The position numbers and the translations under genes were made by a program. From positions 197,098,001-197,162,000 of the forward strand of contig OZ024741.1 of NCBI GenBank assembly GCA_964016885.1: 64,000 nucleotides of DNA. Direction: 5' to 3'. The DNA comes from Eledone cirrhosa. Taxonomy: Eukaryota. The notes under the pieces are model-generated. The model did no database searches. It was not told the origin of the DNA and saw only the letters and a program-made list of their open reading frames with translations. Of the stretch, positions 370-49,488 are shown piece by piece (positions within the stretch are counted from its first letter, which is position 1; every line of letters starts with the position of its first letter).

Positions 370-745
370 TAAGAATAAAGGAACAAAGAGTCAGTGTTGC
401 ATCATAACATATTTAATAACATATTACATATGCTTCACTGTTGATCAGTTCGAGGAACTATTTATTATTGATTGAACCTGGCTCTGGAATCGAAAGATCC
501 TCAGATATGCCTCGGTATGTAAGATGACGAGCTTATATACCGAGGCCTATCTGAGGATCTTTCGATCAATAATAGATCGTTCCTCGAGCTAATCGATAGT
601 GAAACATATGTAATATGTTATTAAATATGTTATGATGCAACACCGACCCTTTGTTCCTTTATTCTTATAGTATTATACTCTGCTCTGTGCGAGCATCGAG
701 TGCTCACCCAGCATACTGCCTATGGACACAATTTTCTTGCACCTA
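370..745 (+). mobile_element. Foldback element (Penelope-like pLTR remnant): inverted arms ~370-523 and ~532-667 plus ~75 nt unpaired tail
   Basis: TAAGAATAAAGGAACAAAGAGTCAGTGTTGCATC... is the reverse complement of ...GATGCAACACCGACCCTTTGTTCCTTTATTCTTA. It abuts (TA)n at ~347-364 and contains a hammerhead-like motif. Confidence 0.7.
546..617 (+). ncRNA. Hammerhead-like ribozyme (type I) with enlarged stem II
   Basis: CTGAGGA at 551-557, GAAAC-ATAT-GTA at 601-612 (palindromic loop 3). Stem I is CCTAT/ATATG here and a perfect CATAT/ATATG in the inverted arm. Confidence 0.55.
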
Positions 746-3257: not shown

Positions 3258-3752
3258 ATAAGGAAAAAAAATGAAATGGAAAATGCAAAGGAGTCTTAAG
3301 AATATTTATTAGGTTCCGTTTCACAGTTCTTATGCTTTTCAAAAGTAGAATTGAGATGGAGGGTTTGTGGTTTTTCTTAGTGGATTGGCAGTATTGGTAG
3401 GGGGTCGGACACCATGCTTTTCAGCATAGACGTCCCTTTGCGATCTGAGTTCAAATCCCACCGAGGTTAACTTTGCCTTTCATCCTTACGGGGTCGATAA
3501 AATAAAGTACCAGTAATGCATGGTGTCCGACCCCCTACCGATACTGCCAATCCACTAAGAAAAACCACAAACCCTCCATCTCAATTCTACTTTTGAAAAG
3601 CATAAGAACTGCGAAACCGGTAAAGGAACCAAATAAATATTCTTAAGAAGACTCCAGTTGCATTTTCGATTTCATTTTTTTCCCTTATACTTTCACTCGT
3701 GTAAGACATCTCGTTTTTTTTTTTCATTTTGAAAAAAAAAACCTCATTTCCT
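3258..3752 (+). mobile_element. Foldback element (Penelope-like): arms ~3258-3418 and ~3518-3689 enclosing a SINE, ~63 nt tail, flanked by (TA)n
   Basis: Clear ~160-bp inverted repeat. SINE family 1 occupies ~3379-3520. (TA)n on both sides. Confidence 0.75.
3590..3625 (+). ncRNA. Minimal hammerhead with U3-A8 core (TTGAAAA)
   Basis: CTT TTGAAAA GCA taagaac TGC GAAAC CG GTA AAG, then AATAAA. Confidence 0.6.
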
Positions 3753-5689: not shown

Positions 5690-7995
5690 AAATAAATAAT
5701 ATCAAAATTTCATAAATTTGATATTATGTGAGATAATTATGTAAGATGAAGTCTTTATTGCGAAAATATAATAGTATATAGAGAATAATGCAAATGCTAA
5801 AGGGTTAAGGAGTACTTTGTGAAACATTTAACTCTGTAAAATTGAGGATTGGTGATAGCTGGAAGATGATGACACTTGATGTAATGAGAAAGAGCATCAG
5901 TCAACTCAGGTCTATTGTGTTTACTAGTGGGGATTGGTTTCACTCAGTCAAAATATCCTTGACATTGAAGAATAGTAACAGCAATTCCATCAAATTGGGT
6001 TTACAGTGGCTTTCATTGTTATTGAAATGGTGAGTTTGATAACCTTGCAAGGTTAAGAAGCAAATAACAAAAACAACTTGTATTTAAAACATATCCCATA
6101 TCAAGTTATAATTCTGATAAAATTTTGACTTAGCACAGCAAACTAACAAAGTTAATGTTACTTATTCATTAGATAACCAACTAATAATTCTTGAAACAGT
6201 ATTTTGCTGTTCTCTATCACCATAGCTAAATGACCTAAGCCAGAGAAACTATGATGCCTTTGCTAGATACATTATAGCCAAAAGTGTAACATAACCACCT
6301 TAATCAAATACACCTCTCCTTTAGCATTGTAGAGATACAAATCAAAACTGGCATGAAACCAGATTGTGTGTGTGTGTGGAAGAACATTTTCCAGTCATGC
6401 AGTACTTTGTCTGAATAGGTAGTGATTCTATTCTAGAAACCAATTATAAAAGAAATTTATGATTAAAATGAGAACAATTTATAGCAGGAAAAGGAAAATT
6501 TTTCTGGTCTTCTTTAGAGAAAGCTAATTCTGCATTTCTAATTGACTAAAAAGGTAGGTGCTTTTTCTCTACTTTTAATTAGGTACTCCATTTTTCTTAC
6601 TTTCTAATATTTCCTGTATTCTAGAAGCTATAATTAATGGAGAACACATTCTTTACTTTTAGTTTTTAACATTTCATGTCTGCAAATAAAATGTCAGTAA
6701 CTTAGTAATTATTGATGAAATATTTGCAATGGAACAGCTTCTGAAACAATACAGTTTCAAAATTAGTTTATCATGTTACTCTTCTTTTGTTTCAAAAATC
6801 CTTTTCAAAATCTTAGAATGATTTACTTTGTTTTAAAGGATATTGTAATAATATAATATTACAGTTAAAGATACTAAGTGACAAAAAATAGATCACAAAT
6901 TTTTGACCTACTTTATGGCAAAAGTAAACATTTTATATGGTTAGAATTAATTGCTATATGGTTATTTACACAATTGTCAGAACTAAAATGTTTTTATTCT
7001 GTTATACTTTTGCTGGTTTCAGTCACTTGATTGTGGCCATTCTGAAGCAAAGTCTTTGAAAGTTTTATTTGATTATATAGACTCAAGTTCATCACCTGGT
7101 ACTTATTCTATTGACATAGGAGGAAGATAAAAGATAAAGACAACCAGATATAAAAGGACATAACTGAGATGATTTAAAATATCACAAGGTGTTTTCATAT
7201 GACACCAATTTGTTTGTTTAACCATTCTAATATATGCACACATAACCGACTGATGGCTTTAGATAACACAAGACTATGATAGAGGACATATACCCAAAGT
7301 GTTCTACAGCAGGATCAAACTTAAAACCATGTTGTTGTGAAGCAAAATTATATAGAGAAATAATTCATTTGCTGCATGATTTCATATGCAATTTCAACTT
7401 TGTACATTTATTCAGGGAGAAATACATTTACATTTAAACATTCAACGTTTTTATTTGAAAAATTCCTCCTTATAAATCTCAAGTGTAGCAATATATCTCA
7501 AAGATAAATCCATTATAATTATTTGCAGAAACAGATTGCTTACATATATTTTGAATCACCGGTAATAAAACCTCAAATCTAGCTGAATAATTTATTCCAG
7601 ATGTTCTAAAGTAAGGTGCTGATAAGAATGACGTTTTTAAGTTCTTGTTTTTTTTTCTATTTCTCTGTATTTTACACAATAATGACTATGTTAAAACATT
7701 TATAAGTATATTATGAAAGTTGAATAATTAAGATACCGAACAAGGATCCTATGTACCAAACCTTTCTGTAAATATTGCTGTTGTTCCTTTCAACAAACAG
7801 AACACATTCACTTATTCTCAGTAAAACCGAACAAAGCTATCATTTTTGGATTATGTCCAAAACTAATTGATAGGCTTCAGAAAATTCATCTACTTGTAAA
7901 ATATCTGATTCAACTGTTATAACAGCTATACACATGGAACTATGCAAACATGATAGTGAGGAAAATGATATTAGAATATTTTAAATAACTGAACA

Positions 7996-9206
7996 TCCCA
8001 TAACTGGGAAATGGTCGTGCTCGGTGTGTAGGAAAGGCGTAGGTAGAAACTCCATTTTATGTCCTAAATGCAAAGTATGGGTGCATAAAAGATGTAGTGG
8101 GATCACAGGTAAGCTAACTAAGAACATAGATTTTACATGTGGCCGGTGCTCTGGTGCAATAAGTAGCAGCAAGTGCCCACAAACTACTAGCTCTTTCAAT
8201 TGCGCAGAGGGTTCTATAGAAATAGTGGACAGCTTCCGTTACCTGGGCGATAAAATCAGCAGTGGGGGAGGGTGCTCTGAAAGTACTGTAGCTAGAGTCA
8301 GAACTGGTTGGAAAAAGTTCAGAGAGCTTATACCACTATTAGCTGCTAAAGGGTTCTCACTAAAAATGAAAGGCAGGTTGTACGATGCCTGCATACGAAC
8401 AGCAATGCTGCATGGCAGTGAGACCTGGGCATTGTGTGCAGAGGATATACGCAGACTAGAGAGGAACGAAGCTTGCATGCTCCGCTGGATGTGTAACAGT
8501 AATATACGTGAACGGCAAAGCATAAACGAACTAAGGAATAAATTAGAGATAAGAGGGATCAGATGTTGTTTACTCGAGAGAAGGCTACGTTGGTATGGAC
8601 ACGTGATGCGCATGAAAGTCGATAGCTGTATAACAAAGTGCAGGGCAATAAAGATAGACGGTAGTCACGGAATAGGCAGACCTAGAAAAACCTGGGACGA
8701 GCTGATAAACTCCGACATCACACACTTACACCTCTCCAAGACAATGTCACTGGACCGAGACCTTTGGCGGTACTCAGTAACAGAGAAGACCCGCCTTACC
8801 TAAATATATAGTAAAACCTACTCCAGCCAGTAGGCATCTCTAACAAAATACACCCCGTCCCACCACCCCCACCCCCACCCGATCCACACCACCCCGTTCT
8901 ATGTAAAGTTATGTTGGTGCCGCGCCATCGAGGCCGAAACAAATGAGATCGTGTAGGTGTCACGACAAAAAACACACAGTCCACGCTGTAATGTGGCCGT
9001 GTAGGCAACACGGTAAAAACCTCCCAGACCCACACTGTAAATGTGGTTGGTGTTAGGAAGGGCATCCAACTGTAGAAAACCTGCCAGACAGTCCTATGCG
9101 AGCAAGACAATCACTCTTGCCTCAAGTGGGACTACCCCCGTCCAAACCCATGCAAGCGTGGAACACGGACGTTAAACGTTGATGATGATGATGATGATGA
9201 TGATGA
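7996..9206 (+). mobile_element. RTE-clade LINE copy A, 5'-truncated (ORF 8024-8803, 3' UTR, (GAT)n tail)
   Basis: PHD-like CxxC...CxxC..WVH.RC...CxxC, VDSFRYLGD, LHGSETW, RRLRWYGHVMR, GRPRKTW. (GAT)n tail at 9181-9206. Confidence 0.95.
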
Positions 9207-9729: not shown

Positions 9730-10104
9730 ATATAATATGTTGAGAAGGTTACACACCAGAGAGAGATATATAGTGCGTTATCAATAATACAGGGAAAAAA
9801 CCACCAGTGTATGGAATCTATAACCTATGAAAGGCAGACTATAGACACGATAATTAAAAATATAAATTAAAGCGTAAATAAATACCTTTATAACTAAATA
9901 ACACACGTACAAATCCAAAGATATAGGTTATAGATTCCATACACTGGTGGTTTTTTCCCTGTATTATTGATAACGCACTATATATCTCTCTCTGGTGTGT
10001 TACCTTCTCAACATATTATATTTTAAAGGGCTCAGGATCTCTTCCCCTTTGAGCACATTATTTACAGGGAATAACGACGGCCTATGCCTCCGTTAATTTA
10101 TCGT
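9730..10104 (+). mobile_element. Foldback element: arms 9730-9828 and 9924-10021 plus ~83 nt tail, between (TA)n tracts
   Basis: Near-perfect ~98-bp inverted repeat with the same architecture as the elements at 0.4, 0.9 and 3.3 kb. No hammerhead seen. Confidence 0.7.
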
Positions 10105-12280: not shown

Positions 12281-12869
12281 CTGCAAAATAAAATGCAGAA
12301 ATATGTACAATATTATAAAAAAAGATAAAGCAATACACTGAAGATAACAGGATACATATAGGTCCTTATTTTTTTAAATTTAATCCTTAAGCTATTTCAA
12401 ATGAAAAACACTTCTCTTTAGTTGAATCAATGACCGACATCCTCTGTAGTGCTGGTTACAATACAAAATCATGCTAAAAAGGGTTGAGAAGGCTTTTCCA
12501 TTGTGTCAAGGGTACTTCACTCTTGGTGGAGACATAGAGGTGCCATCCTGACACTGTATGACAAGCCTTTTAAACTAGAAGCTCATCTGTCTCCAAGTTA
12601 AAACATAGCTGATTTCTTTCAGAGAGAGAGAGACAGAGAGAGGGTGGGTGTAAGTGAGGAAGAGAGATAGGGAGGAGAGGAGGAAAGAGAGAATATTGAC
12701 CCCAGTACTGTACTGGTATTTTATTTATTGACCTCAAAAGGATGAAAGAGCTGGAACAAATACTGAAGCATTTTTAATTTGACCAATTTCCTAGATAGAC
12801 TACATGAAGGTAAAGTCTTCAATGGCTTCACAGGTTATAGAACTTCTCTTCACCATCCATATTGTTTCC

Positions 12870-15800
12870 TATAGACAATATTGTGACGGCTATGATGAAA
12901 TCCATGGACGCTATGGGTTTGGTACTAGAAATGAGGAAGGCTCCAGAATCCTGGAATTCTGTGACGCAAATAACCTAACAATCTGTAACACTAACTTCAA
13001 AAAACGAGACAATCACCTGATCACCTACAGATCAGGGGAACATACCAGCCAGGTAGATTATATCCTTACCAGAAGACGTGACAGAGTGACTGTTGTAAAC
13101 ACTAAATCCCTCCCCCATGAAGAATGCACCTCCCAACATAGACTGATAATTAGCGACCTCATAGTCAGGACGAGACGGACTCAACAGCAGAAGTGGACTA
13201 TCCTCAAGAGAAAAATATGGAAGCTAAAGGACCCCACAGCCAGAAATAAATTTCAAAGCATATTACTTGATGCTTTCGACAGTAAGGAAGAGCATTTAGA
13301 GTCGGACAATATAGAGGGACAGTGGGAATTCCTGAAAGCAAACCTGCTGATGGCGGCAGACGAAGTCTGTGGCCGGAGCAGGCCTATAGGCAGGAGGAGA
13401 GTAACATGGTGGTGGAACAGTAAGGTGGAGGAGTCGATTAAGGCCAAACAGCAGGCTTGGAAAATATGGCGGGATGGGGGAAGTAGAGAAGACTATCAAG
13501 TGGCCAGGAGGGAAGCTAGGAGACAAGTGTACTTCGCAAGAAGGGAAGCAGAGGAAAGAAAGTTCAAGCATGTTCTACAACGCGAGGACCAAAAACGTGA
13601 GGTGTTCAGGATTGCTAGGCAATGTGTCAAGGAAAACCGTGATATTGTTGGGGAGAAGTGTGTACTAAATGATGATGGCGTACTCGCCATCACTGACGCT
13701 GATAAGAAGGTCGCTTGGAAGTGTCACTACGAGAGGCTACTAAATGAGGAGAATAAATGGGAGAAGGATAGTCTCCCCCAGATCGATCCAATAGAGGGAC
13801 CAGCAGTGTTAGTTGAAGGTAGTATAATAAGTAAGGCAATCAAAGATATGAAGACGGGTAAGGCGGCTGGGCCTTCGGAAATAGTTGCTGAGATGCTGAA
13901 GGCCTCTAGAACGGTGGGACACACCATGGTCACCCGGATAGTAAACCAAGTCATACAGAATGGGGTTGTTCCGAAGGACTGGCGTAGCAGCATCATCATT
14001 AACTGTTACAAGGGTAAAGGAGACGCCCTAGATAGGAGTAACTATAGAGGGATTAAATTAATCGACCAGGTCATGAAGGTCACGGAAAAAGTAATAGTGC
14101 AACTAATCAGAGAGAGAATCGATCTAGATGAAATGCAGTTCAGGTTTGTGTCAGGCAAAAGTACCACAGACGCTATTTTCATTGTACGACAACTACAGGA
14201 GAAGTACCTAACTAAAAGTAAACCCCTATACTTAGCCTTTGTCGACTTGGAGAAAGCCTTTGACAGAGTCCCCCGTTCCATTATCTGGTGGGCTCTTAGA
14301 AAACTAGGTGTTGACGAATGGCTTGTGAGAGCTATACAAGCCATGTATAAAGAAACAGTGAGCAAGGTTAGAATTAACAACGAATATAGTGAAGAGTTTA
14401 GCGTAAAAGTTGGTGTCCATCAGGGCTCTGTTCTTAGCCCCCTACTATTCATTATTGCTCTTCAGGCTATAACAGAGGAGTTCAAGACCGGCTGCCCATG
14501 GGAACTCCTATACGCAGATGACCTAACGCTCATAGCTGAATCAATGGCCGAGCTAGAGAAGAAATTCCAAACATGGAAGCACGGCCTAGAATCAAAAGGC
14601 CTTAAAATTAACATGGCTAAGACTAAAGTTCTAGTTTGTAGGAAAGAAAATAAGGTGCCGGTCCCTTCCAGGAAATGGCCATGCTCAGTGTGTAGGAAAG
14701 GCGTAGGTAGAAACTCCATTCTATGTCCCAAATGCAAAGTATGGGTGCATGTAGTGGGATCACAGGTAAGCTAACTAAGAACACAGATTTTACATGTGGC
14801 CGGTGCTCTGGTGCAATAAGTAGCAGCAAGTGCCCACAAAATACTAGCTCTTTCAACTGCGCAGAGGGTTCTATAGAAATAGTGGACAGCTTCCGTTACC
14901 TGGGTGACAAAATCAGCAGTGGGGGAGGGTGCTCCGAAAGTACAGTAGCTAGAGTCAGAACTGGATGGAAAAAGTTCAGAGAGCTTATACCACTAAAAAT
15001 GAAAGGCAGGTTGTATGATGCCTGCATACGAACAGCAATGTTGCATGGCAGTGAGACCTGGGCATTGTGTGCAGAGGATATACGCAGACTAGAGAGGAAC
15101 GAAGCTTGCATGCTCCGCTGGATGTGTAATAGTAATATACGCGAACGGCAAAGCATAAACGAACTAAGGAAAAAGTTAGAAATAAGAGGGATCAGATGTT
15201 GTTTACTCGAGAGAAGGCTACGTTGGTATGGTCACGTGATGCGCATGAAAGACGACAGGACAATAAAGATAGACGGTAGCCACGGAGTAGGCAGACCCAG
15301 AAAAACCTGGGACGAGCTGATAAATTCCGACCTCACACACTTACACCTCTCCAAGACAATGTCACTGGACCAAGAGCTTTGGCGGTACTCAGTAATAAAG
15401 ACCCGCGTTACCTAAATACAAAGTAAAACCTACTACAGTCAGTAGGCATCTCTAACAAAATACACCCCCCCGTCCCACCACCCCCACCCCATCCACACCG
15501 CCCCTTTCAATGTAAAGTTATGTTGGTGCCACAAAATCCAGACCGAAACAAATGAGATCGTGTAGGTGTCACGACAAAAAAAACACACAGTCCACGCTGT
15601 AATGTGACCGTGTAGGCAACACGGTAAAAACCTCCCAGTCCCACACTGTAAATGTGGTTGGTGTTAGGAAGGGCATCCAGCTGTAGAAAACCTGCCAGAC
15701 AGTCCACGCTGTAATGTGGCCGTGTAGGCAACACGGTAAAAACCTCCCAGCCCCACACTGTAAATGTGGTTGGTGTTAGGAAGGGCATCCAACTGTAGAA

Positions 15801-28794: not shown

Positions 28795-31439
28795 ACACAA
28801 AGTAAACACAAAAGCCTTCCCTAGTGAGGAATGTACATCCCAACATAGCTTAGTTGTCAGCAACCTCACAGTCAGAACTAGATGAACCTGGAAACAGAGG
28901 CCAACCTGGAGAAGAAAGATCTGGAAGCTGAAAGACCCCTCAACCAGTAACAGATTTAAAGATATTTTACTCAACGCCTACGACAGTAAAGAAGAACAGA
29001 TAGAGACATTCAATGTAGAAGAGAACTGGGAGTTACTAAAAAATAACTTACTAGAGGCGACAGATGAGGTTTGTGGCTGGAGTAAGACCTCAAGCAGGAG
29101 GAGATGACTTGGTGGTGGAACAATAAGGTAGATGAGGCAGTTAAGGCCAAGAGACAGGCATGGAAAGAATGGAAGAACGGGAGGAGCAGGGTACATTACA
29201 TAGAGACCAAGAGGGAAGCTAGGCGACAAGTATACTTAGCTAGGAGGGAAGCAGAGGATAGAAAATTCAAGCACGTTTTGCAACGTGAGGACCAGAAACA
29301 GGAGGTGTTCAAGATTGCGAGACAGTGTGTCAGAGAGAGTTGTGATGTCATTGGAGAGAAGTGTATCCGGAATGATAAAGGTGAGCTTGCCCTCACAAGT
29401 GCTGAGAAGAAAGATGCATGGAAGAGTCATTATGATAGATTACTAAATGAGGAGAATGCATGGGAAGAAGAGACCCTACCCCAAGTAGACCCTATAGAGG
29501 GGCCAGCAGTACAAGTCAGCAGCAACGTAGTAAGTAAGGCAATCAAAGATATGAAGATGGGGAAGGCAACAGGTCCATCGGGTATAGCTGCCGAGATGCT
29601 GAAGGCATCTGGGTTTGTAGGTCACACTATAACCACACGTATTGTTAACCAGGTAATACTAGAAGGTGTCATACCAAAAGGTTGGTGCAGTAGCATCATT
29701 GTCAACTGCTACAAAGGTAAAGGTGATGCACTAGATAGAGGAAACTATAGAGGTATAAAGCTGATGGACCAGGTCATGAAAGTAACAGAAAGAGTTATAG
29801 CACAGTTGATTAGGGACCGGGTGAAAATAGACGAGATGCAATTTGGGTTTGTACAAGGAAGAGGCACCACTGATGCCCTCTTCCTTGTGAGGCAGTTACA
29901 GGAAAAGTACCTAGCTAAAAGTAAGCCACTCTACTTGGCATTTGTCGACCTTGAGAAAGCCTTTGACAGAGTTCCAAGTGCTGTAATCTGGTGGGCTCTT
30001 AGAAAACTAGGAGTAGATGAATGGCTTGTGAAAGCGGTACAAGCCATGTATAGGGGAGCAGTCAGCAAAGTTAGGATTAGCAATGAGTATAGCGAGGAAT
30101 TTAGCGTACAGGTTGGGGTCCACCAGGGCTCTGTTCTTAGCCCCCTCCTGTTCATCATAGTCCTGCAGGCAATAACGGAGGAGTTTAAGACCGGATGCCT
30201 ATGGGAACTCCTGTATGCTGATGACCTCGCACTTATAGCTGAATCTATGGTAGAACTAGAGAAGAAATTCCAAACTTGGAAGCAGGGACTAGAAAGAAAG
30301 GGTCTCAAAGTAGACGAGAAAACAGAACCCAGATCCCCTCAGGGAAATGGCCTTGCTCAGTATGTAGGAAAGGTGTAGGTAGGAACTCCATTCTTTGCCC
30401 CAAATGCAAAGAATGGGTACACAAGAGATGTAGCGGGATCTCAGGAAGCTTAATTAAGAATGTAGGCTTCACATACAGCAGCTGTGCTGGGACAGCAAGC
30501 AGCAAACAGCCACAGGAAACAAGTACCACCAATCTCTGGGAGGGCTCTGTAGAAACAGTAGACAGCTTCTGCTACCTAGGTGACCGAATTAGCAGCGGAG
30601 GTGGGTGTTCAAAAAGTACAATAACTAGGGTAAGAACGGGATGGAATAAGTTGAGGGAATTACTGCAACTGCTAGCTGCAAAAGGCTTCTCCCTCAAAAT
30701 GAAAGGCAGACTGTATGCTGCGTGTATCCGAACAGCAATGTTACATGGTAGTGAGACCTGGGTGTTGAAGATGGAAGACTTACATAGATTAGAAAGAAAC
30801 GAAGCCTGCATGCTCCGATGGATGTGTAACAGTAATATACGTGAACGACAAAGCATAAATGAATTGAGAGAGAGACTGAGCATAAGAGGAATCAAATGCT
30901 GTGTGCAGGAGAGGCGGTTGCGCTGGTATGGGCATGTGGTGCGTATGAAGGATGACAGCTGCATAAAAAGGTGCAGAGCACTAGAAGTCAATGGAAACCG
31001 CGGAGTGGGGAGACCCAAGATGACCTGGGATGAGGTGATAAAAGCCGACCTTACCCAATTACACCTCTCAAAGGCAATGAAACACGACCGTGACCTCTGG
31101 CGTCACTCAGTAATACAGAGTACCGACCTCCCATGGGTACAAGCTGAAGCATATAGACAATATGCCCCCACCACAAGGTGGTCGTGGAGGTGCCATGGCA
31201 AAAAAGCACCCAGCCCACACTGTAAAGTGGACGTGTAGGCTCCACGAAAAAGCACCTAGCACTCACTGTAAATGAGGTTGGTGTTAGGAAGGGCATCCAG
31301 CTGTAGAAATCAAGCCAAATTAGTTCCTGTATGAGCAAGGCATGGTCAGCCGACCAGACACTGCCCACAACAGGACAACCCATCTAACCCATGCTAGCGT
31401 GGAAGAACAGACGTAAAACGGTGATGATGATGATGATGA
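28795..31439 (+). mobile_element. RTE-clade LINE copy C (second subfamily), 5'-truncated and frameshifted
   Basis: ORFs 29104-30378 (RT with YADD) and 30276-31238 (PHD-like finger, C-terminus). A deletion near 30310 causes the frameshift. (GAT)n tail. Confidence 0.97.
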
Positions 31440-31457: not shown

Positions 31458-32645
31458 TGAGATGCATTCAAAAAGTATCCAACTTTATTTTTTTTCCAGT
31501 CAAAACTGATTCCGGATAGGCAAAATCCTTTGGGTGGGAGGTGACTCCACCCTTCCTACACATGCGTGAACATTTTGGTGATGATAGGTTATGTTGCTTC
31601 CCAGTTGTTATGCCTAGAGTACAGATGTGTAGTGTGCACTTGTCAGATTTTCATTTTCATACAAGAAGACCAAACACATTAAGTAGAGATATTGCATCAA
31701 GTTTTGCTAAAAGTTTGGTGATACTCAAGCTCAAACCATCCAGAAGATTCAGTAGGCCTTAGGTGATGACACTGTGGGCAAAACTCAGATCAAGGAGTGG
31801 TTCAATCACTTAAAATAAGGCTGCACCTCAGTGGAGAGTGAGGCATGTTCAAGAAGGCCATCCACAAACCATGGAGCTGATTGAGAAGGTTCAGTGAATA
31901 GTCATGGAATACCATTGTGTAACAATCCAGAAAATTGCTTATGAAGTGGGAATAAGCACAGGATAAGTGCATTCCATTTTAAAGGATGATTTGTGTATGC
32001 AGAGAGTGTCGGTGAAATTCATCACCAAGGTGCTTGTAGAGCAGCTGAAGCAACTCTGCATGAAAATCACTCGGGATATGCTGGACTGTGCAAACCATGA
32101 CCAAGACTTCACGAACACCATCATCACTGGTGATGAGATATGGGTTTATGGTTACAACTCGGAAACCACATTTTAGTCTTCCCAATGGAAACATCCATCC
32201 TCATCAAGGCCCAAAAAGTACAACAGGCTCACAGCAACATGAAGGTAATGTTGACCTGTCTCTTTGACTTCCATAGTATTGTGCAATATAAATAGAAAAC
32301 CAATAAGAAATACTACCTGGAGGTTACACATTGGCATCATGATGCTGTTCATCGAAAGCAGCCGGGCATGTGGGCAGCGAAGAATTGGCAACTTCACCAT
32401 GACAATGTGCCCATTCATTGTTCAACAGGTTCCCTACTCTCCCAACTAGGTACTGTCTGACTTCTGGCTCTTCCCACACTGGTGGAAATCCATAGCATTC
32501 CAGAAGTGTTACCAGCAGTGGCAGAACCGCAGGGAGAAGTGTGTGAACTCCTGAGGGGGTGTATTTTAAAGGTAATTAAATAAAATGTGAAATGTACAAA
32601 ATTGTTTTTTATGCCCAAAGGTCAGATATTTTTTAACATACCTTA
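31458..32645 (+). mobile_element. Decayed mariner (Tc1/mariner) transposon, near full length (~1.2 kb)
   Basis: QRVSVKFITKVL...IITGDEIWVYGYNSET (mariner catalytic motif), HHDNVP and PYSP remnants. Degenerate TIRs TGAGATGCATTCAAAAAGTATCCAACTTT and AAAGGTCAGATATTTTTTAACATACCTTA. Confidence 0.9.
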
Positions 32646-33287
32646 TCTTTACACCCTCACCACCACCACTTCCATCAATGCCTTCCCAGCCTAACACATT
32701 GAGCATCCTAGTGTTGTAATGAGATAGTGCTGCTGCCATGATAAAAAGCACCCCGTCAACCCAGTAAGGTGGTGGTGTTGAACTCATGATAAAATACACC
32801 CATTATACACTGTAAAGTAGTTGAAAAGTATCCAGCCATTGAAACCAAGCCAAAAATGGAGCATACAAGCAAGACACAGTCACCTGACCTGTCTAATCTC
32901 AGCACATAACATGCAAGCATGGAAAATAAATATTAAAAGGCAATGATGAGTATACATACACGTGTGTGCGTGTAGTGTGTGGATATATATATATTTGACT
33001 TTAAGATATATATATATCAAAGTCAAAGCTAAAAGTTCATAAAGTTAATGACTATTATGAGACAGTAAGTGATTGAGTGTTCAAGAATTCCTCCTAAATA
33101 GGAGGCCATTACATTCCAACATTAATTCCCAGTTGCTACTGGTACTAATTCTTTGGGCTAAGTAGGTTGGAACAATGTGAAATGAAGTGCTATATTTAAG
33201 AAAACAACATGCCACTCAGGGAATTGAAACTGCAACATTACAATCATTAACCCAACATCCTAACCACTAGGCCATGCAACATAACGT

Positions 33288-33511
33288 AATAATGTTAAAT
33301 CTTCTCCTTTGCTGATGATCCAACATTTGACATCTATGATTCACCGATTAATGGTGAAATATATTTCTTCAATGGAATATATACAAAGGACATTAATCAT
33401 TATTGCAAGGTATCTATATTCAATGTTCTTGTTAATTTTTTATATTTTACCTCCATAACTATGTGTGTTTACACTCTTTACAAATTATCCCCTGTAATTG
33501 TTTGATGTGTT

Positions 33512-33517
<6 letters not shown>
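33288..33517 (+). mobile_element. Penelope-like pLTR fragment ending at (TA)n
   Basis: Carries the hammerhead at 33305-33390. T-rich 3' end abuts (TA)n at ~33517-33557. Confidence 0.55.
33305..33390 (+). ncRNA. Type I hammerhead ribozyme, canonical core, long stems I and III
   Basis: TCCTTTG CTGATGA TCCA (29 nt) TGGT GAAA TATATTTC ttcaat GGAATATA TA CAAAGGA. Stem I 7 bp, stem III 9 bp, triplet AUA. Confidence 0.8.
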
Positions 33518-33560
<43 letters not shown>

Positions 33561-33871
33561 AATCGACTTTTAATTTAATGTTAATAAATGCTTGGATTTA
33601 CTACTTGGAATCTTTGAGCTTATTCCAAAGGTGGTATGGTGTATGCTTCTGATATTCTCAGACATGGCATCTTTAATCTAATTTTGGTAGTGTGTGTATA
33701 TATATCCAGATGAGGGACATAAAAGAAATGAATAATCAACACAAAATGCAAGTGGACTATTTATATTAACAGTTTGGCTTAAGAGGTTTCAAGATGAAAA
33801 CAATGTCATTTGCATCTGATGACATCAACGTTCTTTTGCTTTTAAACCACTGGTAATGAGGAGTTAAGCCA

Positions 33872-33968: not shown

Positions 33969-34846
33969 CTCTGAATCATTTTGTTGCCTGTTCATAATTT
34001 ACAGTCTCCAAATTTTTTTCTCTCCTAATCAATGACTTTATCTCATTTCATGTATTCATCTTGTATAAATCCATCTGAGATGGTAGTCTGTCCAATACAC
34101 GCACCATGCCGTCCTCTTTCTCCTTCTTCCTCTATCTGTTAGACACGCAGTGACTAACAACAATGTTTTAAGTCTGCGTGTCTGACATATATGCGTAGCT
34201 TGTGAATAAAAAATTCAAGGGGTGTCACTGGCCGTGGTGATCGCCAAACATGTTTTGTAATGTATCGTCTTATTGGCTAATTTCATCGTCTTACTGCCTA
34301 ATCAACCAACGAGAGTAATTGTTGCTCAAAAGCATCCGCCATTTTGTTTGCACGTTTATTTACCGTTTCGCTTTCAAATCTTCCTCCTGTATTTCGTTGT
34401 TTATCATCAAAATATTTTTCTCGTTTGATAAGTTATATTGTTAATTTATATATGATTTTTTAAATTTATATTAACTTTTTTTTTTCAGTTCGTTATAACG
34501 TGCTTATAATATTGGTTGTATCATATTTACTTCCATATTATTGTTCATTTTATGTTAGATTATTTTATTATTATTATGTTAGATTATTTTTTTTAATTAT
34601 TATGTTACACTATTTGTATGTAATATTTAATTTTTATTAATTCAACTATAACAATTATTATGTAAAATATATTTATTTAATATTGATTGTTTTTTGTAGT
34701 TGTTTATATTAAAAGTCTGAAAATATTTTTATACATCTTACAATAATATTTATAAAATAACAATTATATAATCATTTATAAAATAACAATTATATAATCT
34801 AATTACATTACAACGATAATTTATTATTAATATATATCATGTTTAA

Positions 34847-43600: not shown

Positions 43601-46600
43601 CCTGTCATTCCATCCAATAACTATGTACCTTTCCCTGTCGTTCCATCCAATAACAAGGTACCGTTCCCTATCGTTCCATCCAATAACAAGGTACCGTTCC
43701 CTGTCGTTCCATCCAATAACAAGGTACCTTCCCCTGTCGTTCCATCCAATAACAATGTACCTTCCCCTATCATTCCATCCAATAACAATGTACCTTCCCC
43801 TGTCATTCCATCCAATAACAATGTACCTTTCCCTGTCATTTCATCCAATAACAATGTACCTTTCCCTGTCATTCCACCCAATAACAATGTACCTTTCCCT
43901 GTCATTCCATCCAATAATAATGTACCTTCCCCTGTCATTCCATCCAATAACAATGTACCTTTCCCTGTCATTTCATTCCAATAACAATGTACCTATCCCT
44001 GTCATTTCATCCAATAACAATGTACCTTTCCCTGTCATTCCAGCCAATAACAATGTACCTTTCCCTGTCATTCCATCCAATAACAATGTACCTTTCCCTG
44101 TAGTTCCATCCAATAATAATATACCTTTCCCTGTCATTCCATCCAATAACAATGTACCTTTCCCTGTCATTCCATCCAATAACAATGTACCTTTCCCTGT
44201 CATTCCATCCAATAACAATGTACCTTTCCCTGTCATTCCATCCAATAACAATGTACCTTTCCCTGTCATTCCATCCAATAACAATGTACCTTCCCTTGTC
44301 ATTCCATCCAATAACAACGTACCTTTCGCTGTCATTCCACCCAATAACAATGTATCCTCACCTGTCATTCCATCCAATAACAATGTACCTTCCCCTGTCA
44401 TTCCATCCAATAATAATGTACCTTCCCCTGTCATTCCATCCAATAATAATGTACCTTCCTCTGTCATTCCATCCAATAACAATGTACCTTCCCCTGTCAT
44501 TCCATCCAATAATAATATTCCTTTCCCTGTCATTCCATCCAATACCAATGTACCTTCCCCTGTCATTCCATCCAATAACAATGTACCTTCCCCTGTCATT
44601 CCATCCAATAATAATGTACTTTCCCCTGTCATTCCATCCAATAATAATATACCTTTCCCTGTCATTCCATCCAATAACAATGTACCTTTCCCTGTCATTC
44701 CATCCAATAATAATGTACCTTCCCTTGTCATTCCATCCAATAACAATGTACCTTTCCCTGTCATTCCATCCAATAACAATGTACCTTTCCCTGTCATTCC
44801 ATCCAATAACAATGTACCTTCCCCTGTCATTCCATCCAATAACAATGTACCTTCCCCTATCGTTCCATCCAATAACAATGTACCTTACCCTGTCATTCCA
44901 TCCAATAACAATGTACCTTCCCCTGTCATTCCATCCAATAACAATGTACCATCACCTATCGTTCCATCCAATAACAATGTACCTTCCCCCGTCATTCCAT
45001 CCAATAACAATGTACCTTCCCCTATCGTTCCATCCAATAACAATGTACCTTACCCTGTCATTCCATCCAATAACAATGTACCTTACCCTGTCATTCCATC
45101 CAATAACAATGTACCTTCCCCTGTCATTCCATCCAATAACAATGTACCTTCCCCTATCGTTCCATCCAATAACAATGTACCTTCCCCTGTCATTCCATCC
45201 AATAACAATGTACCTTCCCCTATCGTTCCATCCAATAACAACGTACCTTACCCTGTCATTCCATCCAATAACAATGTACCTTACCCTGTCATTTCATCCA
45301 ATAACAAGGTACCTTCCCCTATCGTTCCATCCAATAATAATGTACCTTCACCTGTCATTCCATCCAATAACAATGTACCTTTCCCTGTCATTCCATCCAA
45401 TAACAATGTACCTTTCCCTGTCATTCCATCCAATAACAATGTACCTTCCCTTGTCATTCCATCCAATAACGTACCTTTCCCTGTCATTCCACCCAATAAC
45501 AATGTACCTTCCTCTGTCATTCCAACCAATAATAATGTACCTTCCCCTGTCATTCCATCCAATAATAATGTACCTTCCCCTGTCATTCCATCCAATAACA
45601 ATGTACCTTCCCCTGTCATTCCATCCAATAATAATGTACCTTCCCCTGTCATTCCATCCAATAATAATATACCTTTCCCTGTCATTCCATCCAATAACAA
45701 TGTACCTTTCCCTGTCATTCCATCCAATAATAATGTACCTTCCCCTGTCATTCTATCCAATAACAATGTACCTTTCCCTGTCATTCCATCCAATAACAAT
45801 GTACCTTCCCCTGTCATTCCATCCAATAACAATGTACCTTCCCCTGTCATTCCATCCAATAACAATGTACCTTTCCCTGTCATTCGATCCAATAACAATG
45901 TACCTTTCCCTGTCATTCCATCCAATAACAATGTACCTCCCCTGTCATTCCATCCAATAACAATGTACCTTCCCTATCGTTCCATCCAATAACAATGTAC
46001 CTTCCCCTATCGTTCCATCCAATAACAATGTATCTTACCCTGTCATTCCATCCAATAACAATGTACCTTCCCCTGTCATTCCATCCAATAACAATGTACC
46101 TTCCCCTGTCATTCCATCCAATAACAATGTACCATCCCCTATCGTTCCATCCAATAACAATGTACCTTCCCCTGTCATTCCATCCAATAACAATGTACCT
46201 TCCCCTATCGTTCCATCCAATAACAACGTACCTTACCCTGTCATTCCATCCAATAACAATGTACCTTCCCCACTCATTCCATCCAATAACAATGTACCTT
46301 CCCCTATCGTTCCATCCAATAACAATGTACCTTACCCTGTCATTCCATCCAATAACAATGTACCGTCCCCTGTCGTTCCATCCAATAACAATGTACCTTC
46401 CCCTATCGTTCCATCCAATAACAATGTACCTTCCCCTGTCATTCCATCCAATAACAAGGTACCTTCCCCTATCGTTCCATCCAATAATAATGTACCTTCA
46501 CCTGTCATTCCATCCAATAATAATGTACCTTTCCCTGTCATTCCATCCAATAACAAGGTACCTTCCCCTATTGTTCCATCCTGTAATAATGTACCTTCCC

Positions 46601-49488
46601 CTATCGTTCCATCCAATAACAATGTACCTTCCCCTGTCATTCCATCCAATAACAATGTACCTTACCCTGTCATTCCATCCAATAACAACGTACCTTCCCC
46701 TGTCATTCCATCCAATAACAATGTACCTTCCCCTGTCATTCCATCCAATAATGTACCTTCCCCTGTCATTCCATCCAATAATGTACCTTCCCCTGTCATT
46801 CCATCCAATAACAATGTACCTTCCCCAGTCATTCCATCCAATAACAATGTACCTTCCCCTGTCATTCCATCCAATAATGTACCTTCCCCTGTCATTCCAT
46901 CCAATAACAATGTACCTTACCCTGTCATTCCATCCAATAACAATGTACCTTACCCTGTCATTCCATCCAATAACAATGTACCTTCCCCTGTCATTCCATC
47001 CAATAACAATGTACCTTCCCTATCATTCCATCCAATAACAATGTACCTTCCCCTGTCATTCCATCCAATAACAATGTACCTTCCCCTGTCATTCCATCCA
47101 ATAATGTACCTTCCCCCCGTCATTCCATCCAATAACAATGTACCTTACCCTGTCATTCCATCCAATAACAATGTACCTTCCCCTGTCATTCCATCCAATA
47201 ACAATGTACCTTCCCCTGTCATTCCATCCAATAACAATGTACCATCCCCTATCGTTCCATCCAATAACAACGTACCTTCCCCTGTCATTCCATCCAATAA
47301 CAATGTACCTTCCCCTGTCATTCCATCCAATAACAATGTACCATCCCCTATCGTTCCATCCAATAACAATGTACCTTACCCTGTCATTCCATCCAATAAC
47401 AATGTACCTTCCCCTGTCATTCCATCCAATAACAATGTACCTTCCCCTATCGTTCCATCCAATAACAATGTACCATCCCCTATCGTTCCATCCAATAACA
47501 ATGTACCTTACCCTGTCATTCCATCCAATAAAAATGTACCTTACCCTGTCACTCCATCCAATAACAATGTACCTTCCCCTATCGTTCCATCCAATAACAA
47601 TGTACCTTACCCTGTCATTCCATCCAATAACAATGTACCTTACCCTGTCATTCCATCCAATAACAATGTACCTTCCTCTGTCATTCCATCCAATAACAAT
47701 GTACCTTCCCCTATCGTTCCATCCAATAACAATGTACCTTACCCTGTCATTCCATCCAATAACAATGTACCTTCCCCTGTCATTCCATCCAATAACAATG
47801 TACCTTCCCCTATCGTTCCATCCAATAATAATGTACCTTACCCTGTCATTCCATCCAATAACAATGTACCTTCCCCTGTCATTCCATCCAATAACAATGT
47901 ACCTTACCCCGTCATTCCATCCAATAACAACGTACCTTCCCCTGTCATTCCATCCAATAACAATGTACCTTCCGTCATTCCATCCAATAACAATGTACCT
48001 TCCCCTGTCATTCCATCCAATAATAATATTCCTTTCCCTGTCATTCCATCCAATACCAATGTACCTTCCCCTGTCATTCCATCCAATAACAATGTACCTT
48101 CCCCTGTCATTCTATCCAATAATAATGTACCTTCCCCTGTCATTCCATCCAATAATAATATACCTTTCCCTGTCATTCCATCCAATAACAATGTACCTTA
48201 CCCTGTCATTCCATCCAATAACAATGTACCTTCCCCTATCGTTCCATCCAATAACAATGTACCATCCCCTATCGTTCCATCCAATAACAATGTACCTTAC
48301 CCTGTCATTCCATCCAATAACAATGTACCTTACCCTGTCATTCCATCCAATAACAATGTACCTTACCCTGTCATTCCATCCAATAACAATGTACCTTCCC
48401 CTATCGTTCCATCCATTAACAATGTACCTTACCCTGTCATTCCATCCAATAACAATGTACCTTTCCCTGTCATTCCATCCAACAACAATGTACCTTCCCC
48501 TATCGTTCCATCCAATAACAATGTACCTTCCCCTGTCATTCCATCCAATAACAATGTACCTTCCCCTATCGTTCCATCCAATAACAATGTACCTTTCCCT
48601 GTCATTCCATCCAACAACAATGTACCTTCCCCTATCGTTCCATCCAATAACAATGTACCTTCCCGTCATTCCATCCAATAACAACGTACCTTCCCTATCG
48701 TTCCATCCAATAACAAGGTACCTTCCCCTATCGTTCCATCCAATAACAATGTACCTTACCCTGTCATTCCATCCAATAACAATGTACCTTCCCCTGTCAT
48801 TCCATCCAATAACAATGTACCTTTCCTGTCATTCCATCCAATAACAATGTACCTTCCCGTCATTCCATCCAATAACAACGTACCTTCCCTATCGTTCCAT
48901 CCAATAACAATGTACCTTACCCTGTCATTCCATCCAATAACAATGTACCTTCCCCTGTCATTCCATCCAATAACAAGGTACCTTCCCCTATCGTTCCATC
49001 CAATAATAATGTACCTTCACCTGTCATTCCATCCAATAATGTACCTTACCCTGTCATTCCATCCAATAACAATGTACCTTTCCCTGTCATTCCATCCAAT
49101 AACAAGGTACCTTCCCCTATCGTTCCATCCTGTAATAATGTACCTTCCCCCGTCATTCCATCCAATAACAACGTACCTTCTCCCATCATTCCATCCAATA
49201 ACAATGTACCTTCCCCCGTCATTCCATCCAATAACAACGTACCTTCCCCCGTCATTCCATCCAATAACAATGTACCTTTCCCTGTCATTCCATCCAATAA
49301 CAATGTACCTTCCCCCCGTCATTCCATCCAATAACAATGTACCTTCCCGTCATTCCATCCAATAACAATGTACCTTTCCCTGTCATTCCATCCAATAACA
49401 ACGTACCTTCCCCTGTCATTCCATCCAATAACAATGTACCTTCCCCTGTCATTCCATCCAATAACAATGTACCTTCCCCTGTCATTCC
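43601..49488. repeat. 33-bp minisatellite, about 178 units
   Basis: Consensus CCTGTCATTCCATCCAATAACAATGTACCTTCC. Unit count is span divided by 33. It explains all PVIPSNNNVPS, MYLPLSFHPIT and GTLLLDGMTGE ORFs. Confidence 0.99.

What the first reader, a model, noticed from the sequence alone, without database searches (positions are those of the whole stretch)
33288..33404. Well-formed full-size hammerhead with extended, bulged stem I
Seen: perfect CTGATGA and GAAA core, 7-bp stem I that extends past an internal loop (AATAATG/CATTATT), 9-bp stem III, AUA triplet with predicted cut after 33383, and a 29-nt loop II. Known: loop II-stem I bulge contacts activate type I hammerheads, and most PLE hammerheads are minimal rather than like this. 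It is the strongest candidate in the window for a ribozyme active as a monomer.
Basis: partly seen in the sequence, partly recalled or inferred. Interest (0 to 1): 0.75.

Follow-up and report, generated by a model that had tools for sequence, protein, structure and literature searches.

The report
Braced hammerhead in Penelope-driven retrozyme
This is a shortened, decayed copy of a 550-base non-coding jumping repeat whose hammerhead (self-cutting RNA) core and first stem are kept by compensating base changes across sister families; genomic junctions that end exactly at the predicted cut suggest that a sister family cuts in living cells, but this particular copy is predicted to misfold and is likely a poor cutter.

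Summary
It lies in a 5'-truncated copy (33294-33690) of a 551-nt repeat. The 'extended stem I' uses bases private to this locus. The 'perfect' CUGAUGA is most likely CpG decay of a family CCGAUGA (33 of 39 exact matches). Stem II opens with U·U, and a hairpin is predicted to bury G12-A14.

The family matters more. Sister subfamilies (about 2,000 motifs) carry C3-G8, U3-A8 or G3-C8 cores and compensated stem I pairs. Their loop II can pair with both flanks of stem I; the upstream pairing co-evolves, and this copy has lost most of that strand. Head-to-head insertions end at two fixed sites beside (TA)n, a Penelope signature. One insertion holds a cut-to-cut dimer of the sister family inside the predicted hammerhead cut of an RT-encoding Penelope element, a likely fossil of in vivo cleavage. 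Ordinary 5' truncations do not pile up at the cut. No RNA data; cleavage untested. The scan noted similar features in other repeats of this genome. Verdict: new variant of non-LTR retrozyme.

The parts
33294..33690 (+). 5'-truncated copy of the 551-nt non-coding repeat (family A); 5' junction could be 33286 with a 5-nt deletion; single arm, no inverted partner
   Evidence: 15 substitutions in 375 aligned bases against the in-script family majority
33288..33294 (+).
33294..33303 (+). Remnant (10 of about 26 nt) of the upstream strand X' that pairs with loop II in intact copies (PK1), or alternatively with a downstream strand Y
33305..33311 (+). Stem I, 5' strand (8-9 bp in the family, 7 bp here)
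33312..33318 (+). Core box C3-A9, CTGATGA here; family majority CCGATGA; sister subfamilies TTGAAAA/TTGATAA (U3-A8), GTGACCA (G3-C8), CTGACGA
33319..33322 (+). U10.1 plus stem II 5' strand CCA
33323..33344 (+). Loop II 5' part (X), partner of X'; carries a G-to-C change at 33324 in this copy
33340..33358 (+). Predicted inhibitory hairpin TTCACC/GGTGAA that buries G12-A14
33346..33352 (+). Loop II 3' part GATTAAT, predicted pseudoknot (PK2) with 33392-33398
   Evidence: sequence; (conserved, no compensatory change)
33352..33359 (+). Stem II 3' strand TGG, U11.1 and GAAA box
33359..33382 (+). Stem III, 9 bp with 6-nt loop; both arms contain the palindrome ATATAT
   Evidence: 99% of cells paired, no compensatory change
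33383..33384 (+). Predicted cleavage site (AUA|C); the homologous site ends rearrangements in sister family B
33384..33390 (+). Stem I, 3' strand (family G at 33391 is C here, breaking the eighth pair)
33392..33398 (+). ATTAATC, predicted PK2 partner directly 3' of stem I
   Evidence: sequence
33517..33557 (+). Internal (TA)n, expanded in this copy
33579..33583 (+). Approximate position of the family's second fixed 3' end (inferred second RT start site)
33686..33707 (+). Main fixed 3' end (GGTAG, to 33690) followed by a short TG/TA target run

Best explanation
The stretch is the type I hammerhead of a 5'-truncated, about 4%-decayed copy of a 551-nt non-coding repeat that was likely copied into TA microsatellites by Penelope-like enzymes; the hammerhead likely cuts in the lineage, but this copy is predicted to misfold and is likely a weak cutter on its own. 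Shown by sequence comparison: family membership, truncation, a three-state 3-8 core pair, compensated stem I, two fixed 3' ends used one per arm in head-to-head insertions, copies longer than one unit, and rearrangements ending exactly at the cut in sister family B. Inferred: in intact RNA the strand 5' of stem I (X') pairs with the 5' half of loop II. This would tie stems I and II together and occupy the TTCAC bases that otherwise bury G12-A14, while GATTAA pairs with the strand 3' of stem I. Cleavage would be slow or protein-assisted and would give unit-length RNA that may circularise. Most insertions were copied from uncut or circular RNA, and rarely the RT jumped onto (or a ligase joined) a cleaved end. 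Later pairing of X' with downstream strand Y would switch the motif off. The window copy lost 16 of about 26 nt of X' and gained its canonical U4 after insertion.
For: Family and truncation. Core: 33 of 39 CCGATGA; of the first 100 of 267 matches listed, my hand count gives 55 G3-C8, 36 C3-G8 and 9 others; U3-A8 in the larger sister family. In 36 chosen copies the 3-8 pair holds in all (UA 16, CG 11, GC 8, UG 1), two stem I pairs show double changes (14 and 16 sequences), and two of four central PK1 pairs do (4 and 3). RNAalifold recovers stems I-III unprompted. Cognate X':X duplexes average -17.1 against -13.05 kcal/mol for swapped ones, permutation p = 0.0009 over 8 related subfamilies. Two fixed ends: 18 of 28 (A) and 39 of 51 (B) head-to-head pairs use one end each, none uses the same end twice, as in the two-site internal initiation of PMC11167929. 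L117: a 1,136-nt B dimer runs from cut-2 to cut 0 and splits family Z at its predicted cut; Z also lies 3' of a 1,096-aa RT/GIY-YIG ORF. At the B cut 3 long jumps and 2 short duplications among 12 insertions; no long jump among 4 matches at +23 and one local rearrangement at -19. Window copy: G12 paired 1.00; 0.09 for the family A majority when X is held paired.
Against: No cleavage assay and no RNA data. No junction at the cut was found for family A itself (0 of 13 matches; A is much smaller than B, so power is low). 5' starts are not enriched at the cut (9 junctions there, 18 at +28, 3 at -22; flat histograms over 172 and 90 arms). The count of pairs with double changes (5) does not exceed shuffles (209 of 500), the 36 sequences were picked as nearest to their cluster majority (36 of 108), and relatedness inflates the covariation score. 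PK2 and stems II-III show no compensatory change. Holding X paired does not free G12 in family B (0.80) and leaves the A hammerhead fold at 5e-4 in a model without pseudoknots. In B, loop II can instead fold as a long stem II. A 20-bp PK1 and PK2 joined by a 4-nt linker may not coexist. The L117 chimera is one event, shares TA microhomology, and rests on the assembly alone. No autonomous element homologous to the unit was found in 30 PLE loci.
Confidence: 0.68

Rival explanations
1. One reading: this copy is a stand-alone, monomer-active hammerhead switched on by a loop II-stem I bulge contact.
For: Canonical core boxes, 7-bp stem I, 9-bp stem III and intact PK2 strands. U10.1·U11.1 occurs in active natural hammerheads (PMC3088659 section 8; axolotl HHR_Amex2 in PMC7229834).
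Against: The extension is private to the locus and does not form in the MFE; G12 is buried with probability 1.00; U4 is likely CpG decay.
Confidence: 0.1
2. X':X is the off-switch, not the brace. It traps stem I's 5' strand and the core in a hairpin loop during transcription, and the active form has stem I extended by X':Y plus PK2. Losing X' and regaining U4 could then make the window copy more active than its parent.
For: In the nested MFE of the family A majority X':X displaces stem I. RNAalifold and the circular folds prefer X':Y together with stems I and III. X':Y is stable in all 8 subfamilies.
Against: With X':Y formed, the TTCACC/GGTGAA hairpin still buries G12 in family A (1.00). X':Y shows no cognate preference (p = 0.23).
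Confidence: 0.17
3. The hammerhead of family A is catalytically negligible (C4 core) and the element spread without cutting; its fold is kept only as an inherited RNA scaffold for the PLE protein.
For: C4 in 58 of 80 copies. U4C considerably lowers activity in vitro (PMC3088659 passage). Hammerhead mutants do not affect PLE insertion in vitro (PMC11167929 passage). No family A junction at the cut.
Against: The same passage reports that U4C still allows viroid infectivity. Close relatives keep U4 and swap the 3-8 pair compensatorily, and family B shows cut-site junctions. This rival concerns family A only and is partly compatible with the best explanation.
Confidence: 0.25

Closest known systems
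Metazoan non-LTR retrozymes with type I hammerheads (PMC7229834, parts 2-3 of 6 read; bioRxiv 10.64898/2026.07.22.740005, part 1 of 5 and passages read)
   Same: Non-coding, low-GC repeat with one type I hammerhead per unit; direct tandem dimers; stable predicted circular fold (z -4.0 and -2.9 on 30 shuffles); co-occurs with PLEs; U·U at the base of stem II as in axolotl HHR_Amex2.
   Different: Unit of 551-567 nt against about 170-400 nt reported; at most about 2 units per insertion among the loci seen; 9-bp stem III; 29-37-nt loop II pairing with both flanks of stem I; three states of the 3-8 pair; circular RNA not shown.
Penelope-like element pLTR hammerheads (PMC4209133, parts 1-2 of 4; PMC8557442, passages and section 11; PMC11167929, part 1 of 4 and passages)
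   Same: U3-A8 core variant known from Schistosoma PLEs; inverted 5'-truncated arm; (TA)n targets as in Neptune, Naiad and Hydra; two internal start sites giving a one-sided tail; insertion mostly from uncut RNA.
   Different: No ORF; not a minimal dimer-type motif; no G10.1-C11.1; tail about 105-140 nt rather than 30-40; genomic junctions at the cut, whereas PMC11167929 found no reads at its cut.
Pseudoknot-stabilised hammerheads (PMC3088659, passages and section 8)
   Same: Base-paired contact between loop II and a strand flanking stem I; short stem II; U10.1·U11.1; U4C and U3-A8 occur naturally.
   Different: Two pairings, one up to about 20 bp, on both flanks of stem I, which would form a four-way junction across the distal ends of stems I and II; a whole G3-C8 subfamily, which the passages I read know only as an engineered partial rescue (PMC8495972, PMC11167929, PMC3884650).
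Type-SGC non-circularly permuted hammerheads (PMC10085705, passages)
   Same: [quoted passage not shown]
   Different: Block order here is C-G-S, ordinary type I; not permuted.

Membership tests
Type I hammerhead ribozyme | Core boxes C3-A9, G12-A15 and U16-H17 in C-G-S order with stems I-III | tested here: met
Type I hammerhead ribozyme | Conserved 3-8 Watson-Crick pair | tested here: met
   C-G, U-A and G-C across subfamilies; 36 of 36 chosen copies paired; 91 of the first 100 listed
Type I hammerhead ribozyme | U4 and a 10.1-11.1 pair | tested here: not met
   Family A majority has C4 and the subfamilies aligned have U·U; both are described natural variants (PMC3088659), so this lowers 'canonical', not 'hammerhead'
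Type I hammerhead ribozyme | [quoted passage not shown] | tested here: inconclusive
Type I hammerhead ribozyme | Site-specific self-cleavage | not testable with these tools
   Only indirect genomic junctions in sister family B
Non-LTR retrozyme | Non-coding repeat unit with one type I hammerhead, tandem copies with two motifs | tested here: met
   No long ORF in six frames; direct dimers 546-571 bp apart in family B; arms longer than one unit in 9 of 85 (A) and 9 of 48 (B)
Non-LTR retrozyme | Unit size about 170-400 nt | tested here: not met
   551 and 567 nt; a descriptive range, not a mechanism
Non-LTR retrozyme | Expressed as linear and circular monomers | not testable with these tools
   Needs RNA data
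PLE-mobilised element | Inverted 5'-truncated arm, one-sided tail from two RT start sites, (TA)n target | tested here: met
   Arms on both strands in 16 of 60 (A) and 19 of 27 (B) loci; 18 of 28 and 39 of 51 pairs use the two ends
PLE-mobilised element | Homology to the pLTR of an autonomous PLE | tested here: inconclusive
   None in 30 of the 150 listed GIY-YIG loci; physical chimera with a PLE 3' region in L117
Minimal dimer-type PLE hammerhead | Very short palindromic stem III | tested here: not met
   9-bp hairpin, although each arm holds the palindrome ATATAT
Type-SGC hammerhead | Blocks in S-G-C order | tested here: not met
   Order is C-G-S (definition from PMC10085705 passages)

The most novel reading that the evidence does not exclude
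An animal retrozyme superfamily uses a type I hammerhead in which a long loop II pairs with both flanks of stem I, forming a four-way junction that doubles as a folding-order switch (on while nascent, off once strand Y is made). It has tuned its core through C3-G8, U3-A8, G3-C8 and C4 states, and its cleaved ends are joined in trans to the cleaved ends of autonomous Penelope RNA. That would give a natural G3-C8 hammerhead lineage and direct genomic evidence that retrozyme and PLE hammerheads both cut in vivo and meet in the same RT complex.
Probability: 0.3. Interest if true: 0.75.

Novelty: new variant of a known kind. Interest (0 to 1): 0.52.

Why it matters
Whether Penelope-associated hammerheads cut in vivo, and whether retrozymes are copied by PLE enzymes, are open questions in the papers read (PMC4209133, PMC8557442, PMC11167929). 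This family gives testable handles: two fixed start sites that can be tried with a purified PLE protein, a chimera that predicts two exact cut sites, and a natural series of core variants in one structural frame, including G3-C8, which I found described only as an engineered rescue. It is also a caution for genome scans: a single copy can look canonical through CpG decay and flank coincidence while being a crippled member of its family. Rfam misses the motif.

Tried and rejected
Rfam at gathering score on the window and at E<=5 on four loci: no hammerhead match on the motif. No RNA holder listed, which says nothing on expression. Contigs of the listed runs did not cover the L117 Z-to-B junction; a hole proves nothing. 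Pile-up of 5' truncations at the cut: tested and not seen. Autonomous parent: blastn, tblastn and covariance model R1 on 30 PLE loci found none. Coding reading of the repeat: short open frames with stops, rejected. Permuted (SGC) wiring, prompted by earlier notes: rejected. A host exon at 31800-32570: it reads as a broken mariner-like transposase (motifs recalled). The pattern was too loose to use (control counts 1898 and 1842). X':Y co-evolution: not significant. Paper searches found no natural G3-C8 family, no such double pairing and no cut-to-cut chimera. The library lacks most subscription papers, and Lünse et al. (PMC5785218), which describes PLE hammerhead variants, was not held and not seen. 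I read no supplements; those of PMC3088659, PMC4209133 and PMC8557442 hold alignments that could contain these variants.

Full report
1. Observation. The sequence shows a type I hammerhead layout at 33305-33390: stem I TCCTTTG/CAAAGGA, CTGATGA, U, CCA, a 29-nt loop, TGG, U, GAAA, a 9-bp stem III, and AUA with the predicted cut after 33383. CTGATGA alone is common (7 found, 10.5 expected), but the whole layout arose in 0 of 300 shuffles. Rfam does not detect it. The MFE does not form the hammerhead: TTCACC pairs with GGTGAA and buries G12-A14. The constrained hammerhead fold lies about 10 kcal/mol above the ensemble and G12 is paired with probability 1.00 (nested model, pseudoknots not scored).

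2. It is one copy of a repeat. The window lies at G000:C2:197098001-197162000 of a 3.0-Gb genome. A DNA search scored 40 of 1,819 candidates and returned copies 90-95% identical from about 33294 onward. The other 29 copies aligned continue upstream with a different shared sequence or other flanks, so AATAATG is private; the junction is 33294, or 33286 with a 5-nt deletion. The unit is 551 nt, circularly permuted in partial tandems. The window copy ends at 33690 and differs at 15 of 375 aligned bases; 4 of its 6 CpG sites are decayed, including the one that gives U4. Genome-wide, 33 of 39 exact matches read CCGATGA. In aligned copies C4 stands in 58 of 80, and C-to-T there (21 of 80, partly a U4 subfamily) matches the next CpG (21 of 85). 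Family A therefore spread with a C4 core. It has 236 exact matches to a 3'-end pattern.

3. Sister subfamilies. A stem III pattern has 1,957 matches with one mismatch and 1,522 with a free loop. Most belong to family B (567 nt, 68% identical to A; 1,298 exact 3'-end matches) with core TTGAAAA or TTGATAA, that is U3-A8. A third group, D, has GTGACCA, that is G3-C8: of the first 100 of 267 matches listed, I count 55 G3-C8, 36 C3-G8 and 9 others. A tree built without the core columns separates B, E, D and A and needs at least two double changes of this pair. On 36 copies chosen as nearest their cluster majority (of 108), the 3-8 pair always holds, two stem I pairs are compensated, and stems II and III are 97-99% paired without compensation. 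The number of compensated pairs does not beat shuffles (209 of 500), and cell-based scores are inflated by kinship. RNAalifold returns stems I, II and III by itself. U10.1·U11.1 is shared with several other hammerhead families of this genome, some next to PLE ORFs, and is a described natural variant, as are U4C and U3-A8 (PMC3088659 section 8 and passages; PMC4209133 parts 1-2; PMC7229834 part 3).

4. Loop II. Its 5' half (X) pairs with the roughly 26 nt just 5' of stem I (X'). For one copy per subfamily the duplex beat all 200 shuffles in 7 of 8 subfamilies (13 of 200 in the eighth), and cognate pairs are more stable than swapped ones (-17.1 against -13.05 kcal/mol, p = 0.0009; the subfamilies are related). 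Its 3' half GATTAA(T) is complementary to (A)TTAATC just 3' of stem I and is nearly invariant. Together these would close a four-way junction over stems I and II (inference); the 4-nt linker in A makes full coexistence doubtful. X' can instead pair with a downstream strand Y, extending stem I, without cognate preference (p = 0.23). X overlaps the 5' strand of the inhibitory hairpin. Holding X paired drops G12 pairing to 0.09 for the A majority but not for B (0.80), where loop II can also fold as a long stem II. The window copy keeps only 10 nt of X', has a G-to-C change in X, and has lost the eighth stem I pair.

5. How it moves. Arms on both strands occur in 16 of 60 A loci and 19 of 27 B loci anchored on the 3' end, and most ends abut (TA)n. 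In head-to-head pairs one arm ends at the main site and the other about 105-140 nt upstream: 18 of 28 for A and 39 of 51 for B (two of these from one segmental duplication); no pair uses the same site twice. This matches internal initiation at two sites, which leaves a one-sided tail, shown for a purified PLE protein (PMC11167929, part 1 and passages), and the inverted arrangement and (TA)n bias in PMC8557442 (passages, section 11). The genome has many GIY-YIG PLEs (150 scored of 10,597 candidates), but none of 30 loci examined shares sequence with the unit.

6. Does it cut? Ordinary 5' starts do not pile up at the cut (9 junctions there, 18 at +28, 3 at -22), so most templates were uncut or circular, as PMC11167929 found in vitro. 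Ends tell differently. In L117 a 1,136-nt dimer of B runs from cut-2 to cut 0 and sits between GACCTA and ACCAAC of family Z, whose own hammerhead layout predicts a cut exactly there; Z also lies 3' of a 1,096-aa RT/GIY-YIG ORF with a CX4CX2C linker. Both arms of that insertion show the B-to-Z junction and end at Z's termini. Among 13 matches (12 insertions) where the B cut is followed by two non-family bases, 3 are long jumps, 2 are short duplications ending at the cut, 1 is a 3-nt deletion and 6 are substitutions. Controls at +23 gave 4 small indels and at -19 one local rearrangement. Z's cut also ends duplications and deletions (no control). RT jumping onto a cleaved 3' end or RNA ligation would both explain this, and both need RNA ends at the cut (inference). 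The numbers are small, TA microhomology is present, none of the 13 is family A, and the chimera rests on the assembly.

7. Comparison. It works like a metazoan non-LTR retrozyme mobilised by PLE enzymes. It meets the sequence-level criteria except unit size; circular RNA and cleavage could not be tested. It is not a minimal dimer-type PLE hammerhead and not type SGC. Stem III may have arisen by duplicating the ATATAT palindrome seen in dimer-type families of this genome (inference). In ten paper searches I found G3-C8 only as an engineered partial rescue (PMC8495972, PMC11167929, PMC3884650, passages) and no report of this double pairing or of a cut-to-cut chimera; the paper most likely to hold precedents (PMC5785218) and the supplements were not seen. 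Earlier notes of this scan report U3-A8 and C4 cores, pseudoknots, paired end points and cut-site junctions in repeats of this genome. They are unchecked AI notes and not support; look-ups by sequence found no note on these families.

8. Verdict. A real hammerhead in a probably crippled copy. The family is a new variant of a known kind with several testable twists. Interest 0.52; most novel reading 0.3 likely, worth 0.75 if true.

Noticed in passing
window 959 (-), 1404 (+), 36601 (+); L125:8749: A second hammerhead family with a CAGAAGA (U4A) core in all 7 distinct copies grouped, U·U at 10.1-11.1, a 5-bp stem III and a possible GTTAA/TTAAT loop II-tail pseudoknot. In L125 it ends the 3' region of an ORF with a Hydra-like endonuclease.
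   Followed up: partly
L222:1400-1520, L123:6420-6510: Family Z hammerhead (TTGACAA core, 4-bp stem II, 5-bp stem III with a long loop, only 2 bp of stem I visible, preceded by CAG). Its predicted cut ends 29-nt duplications at 4 loci and starts deletions at 2, among 10 matches; 850 matches to the general pattern. No control site was run.
   Followed up: partly
L240:1521; L246:1504; L248:1503: Other junctions at the B cut: joined to the last 43 nt of an unrelated repeat (987 pattern matches); an inverted arm of another hammerhead family joined to B starting at its cut; a fold-back with both arms starting at the cut.
   Followed up: partly
many loci: At least ten further type I hammerhead families, several with U10.1·U11.1 or long stem II regions and palindromic stem III; some sit just 3' of PLE ORFs (L124, L125, L127).
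   Followed up: no
window 33157-33276: A different, common short repeat directly upstream of the element (about 68-75% identical to copies in other loci); SINE-like by recall.
   Followed up: no
window 31800-32570 (+): Broken mariner-like transposase remnant (motifs recalled, no family scan).
   Followed up: no
window 34150-34350: G+C-richer stretch with CCAAT-like and CCGCCATTTTG motifs, possibly a promoter; not tested.
   Followed up: no
window 43601-49488: 33-bp satellite, 179 copies, 92% matches, strong C skew.
   Followed up: no
window 7985-8803, 12795-15415, 29086-31238: Broken LINE-like reverse transcriptase frames of one family (RT motifs recognised by eye).
   Followed up: no
window 370-667, 3318-3617, 9730-10021: Inverted repeats of about 100 nt with 84-94 nt between the arms; possibly head-to-head insertions of other elements.
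   Followed up: no
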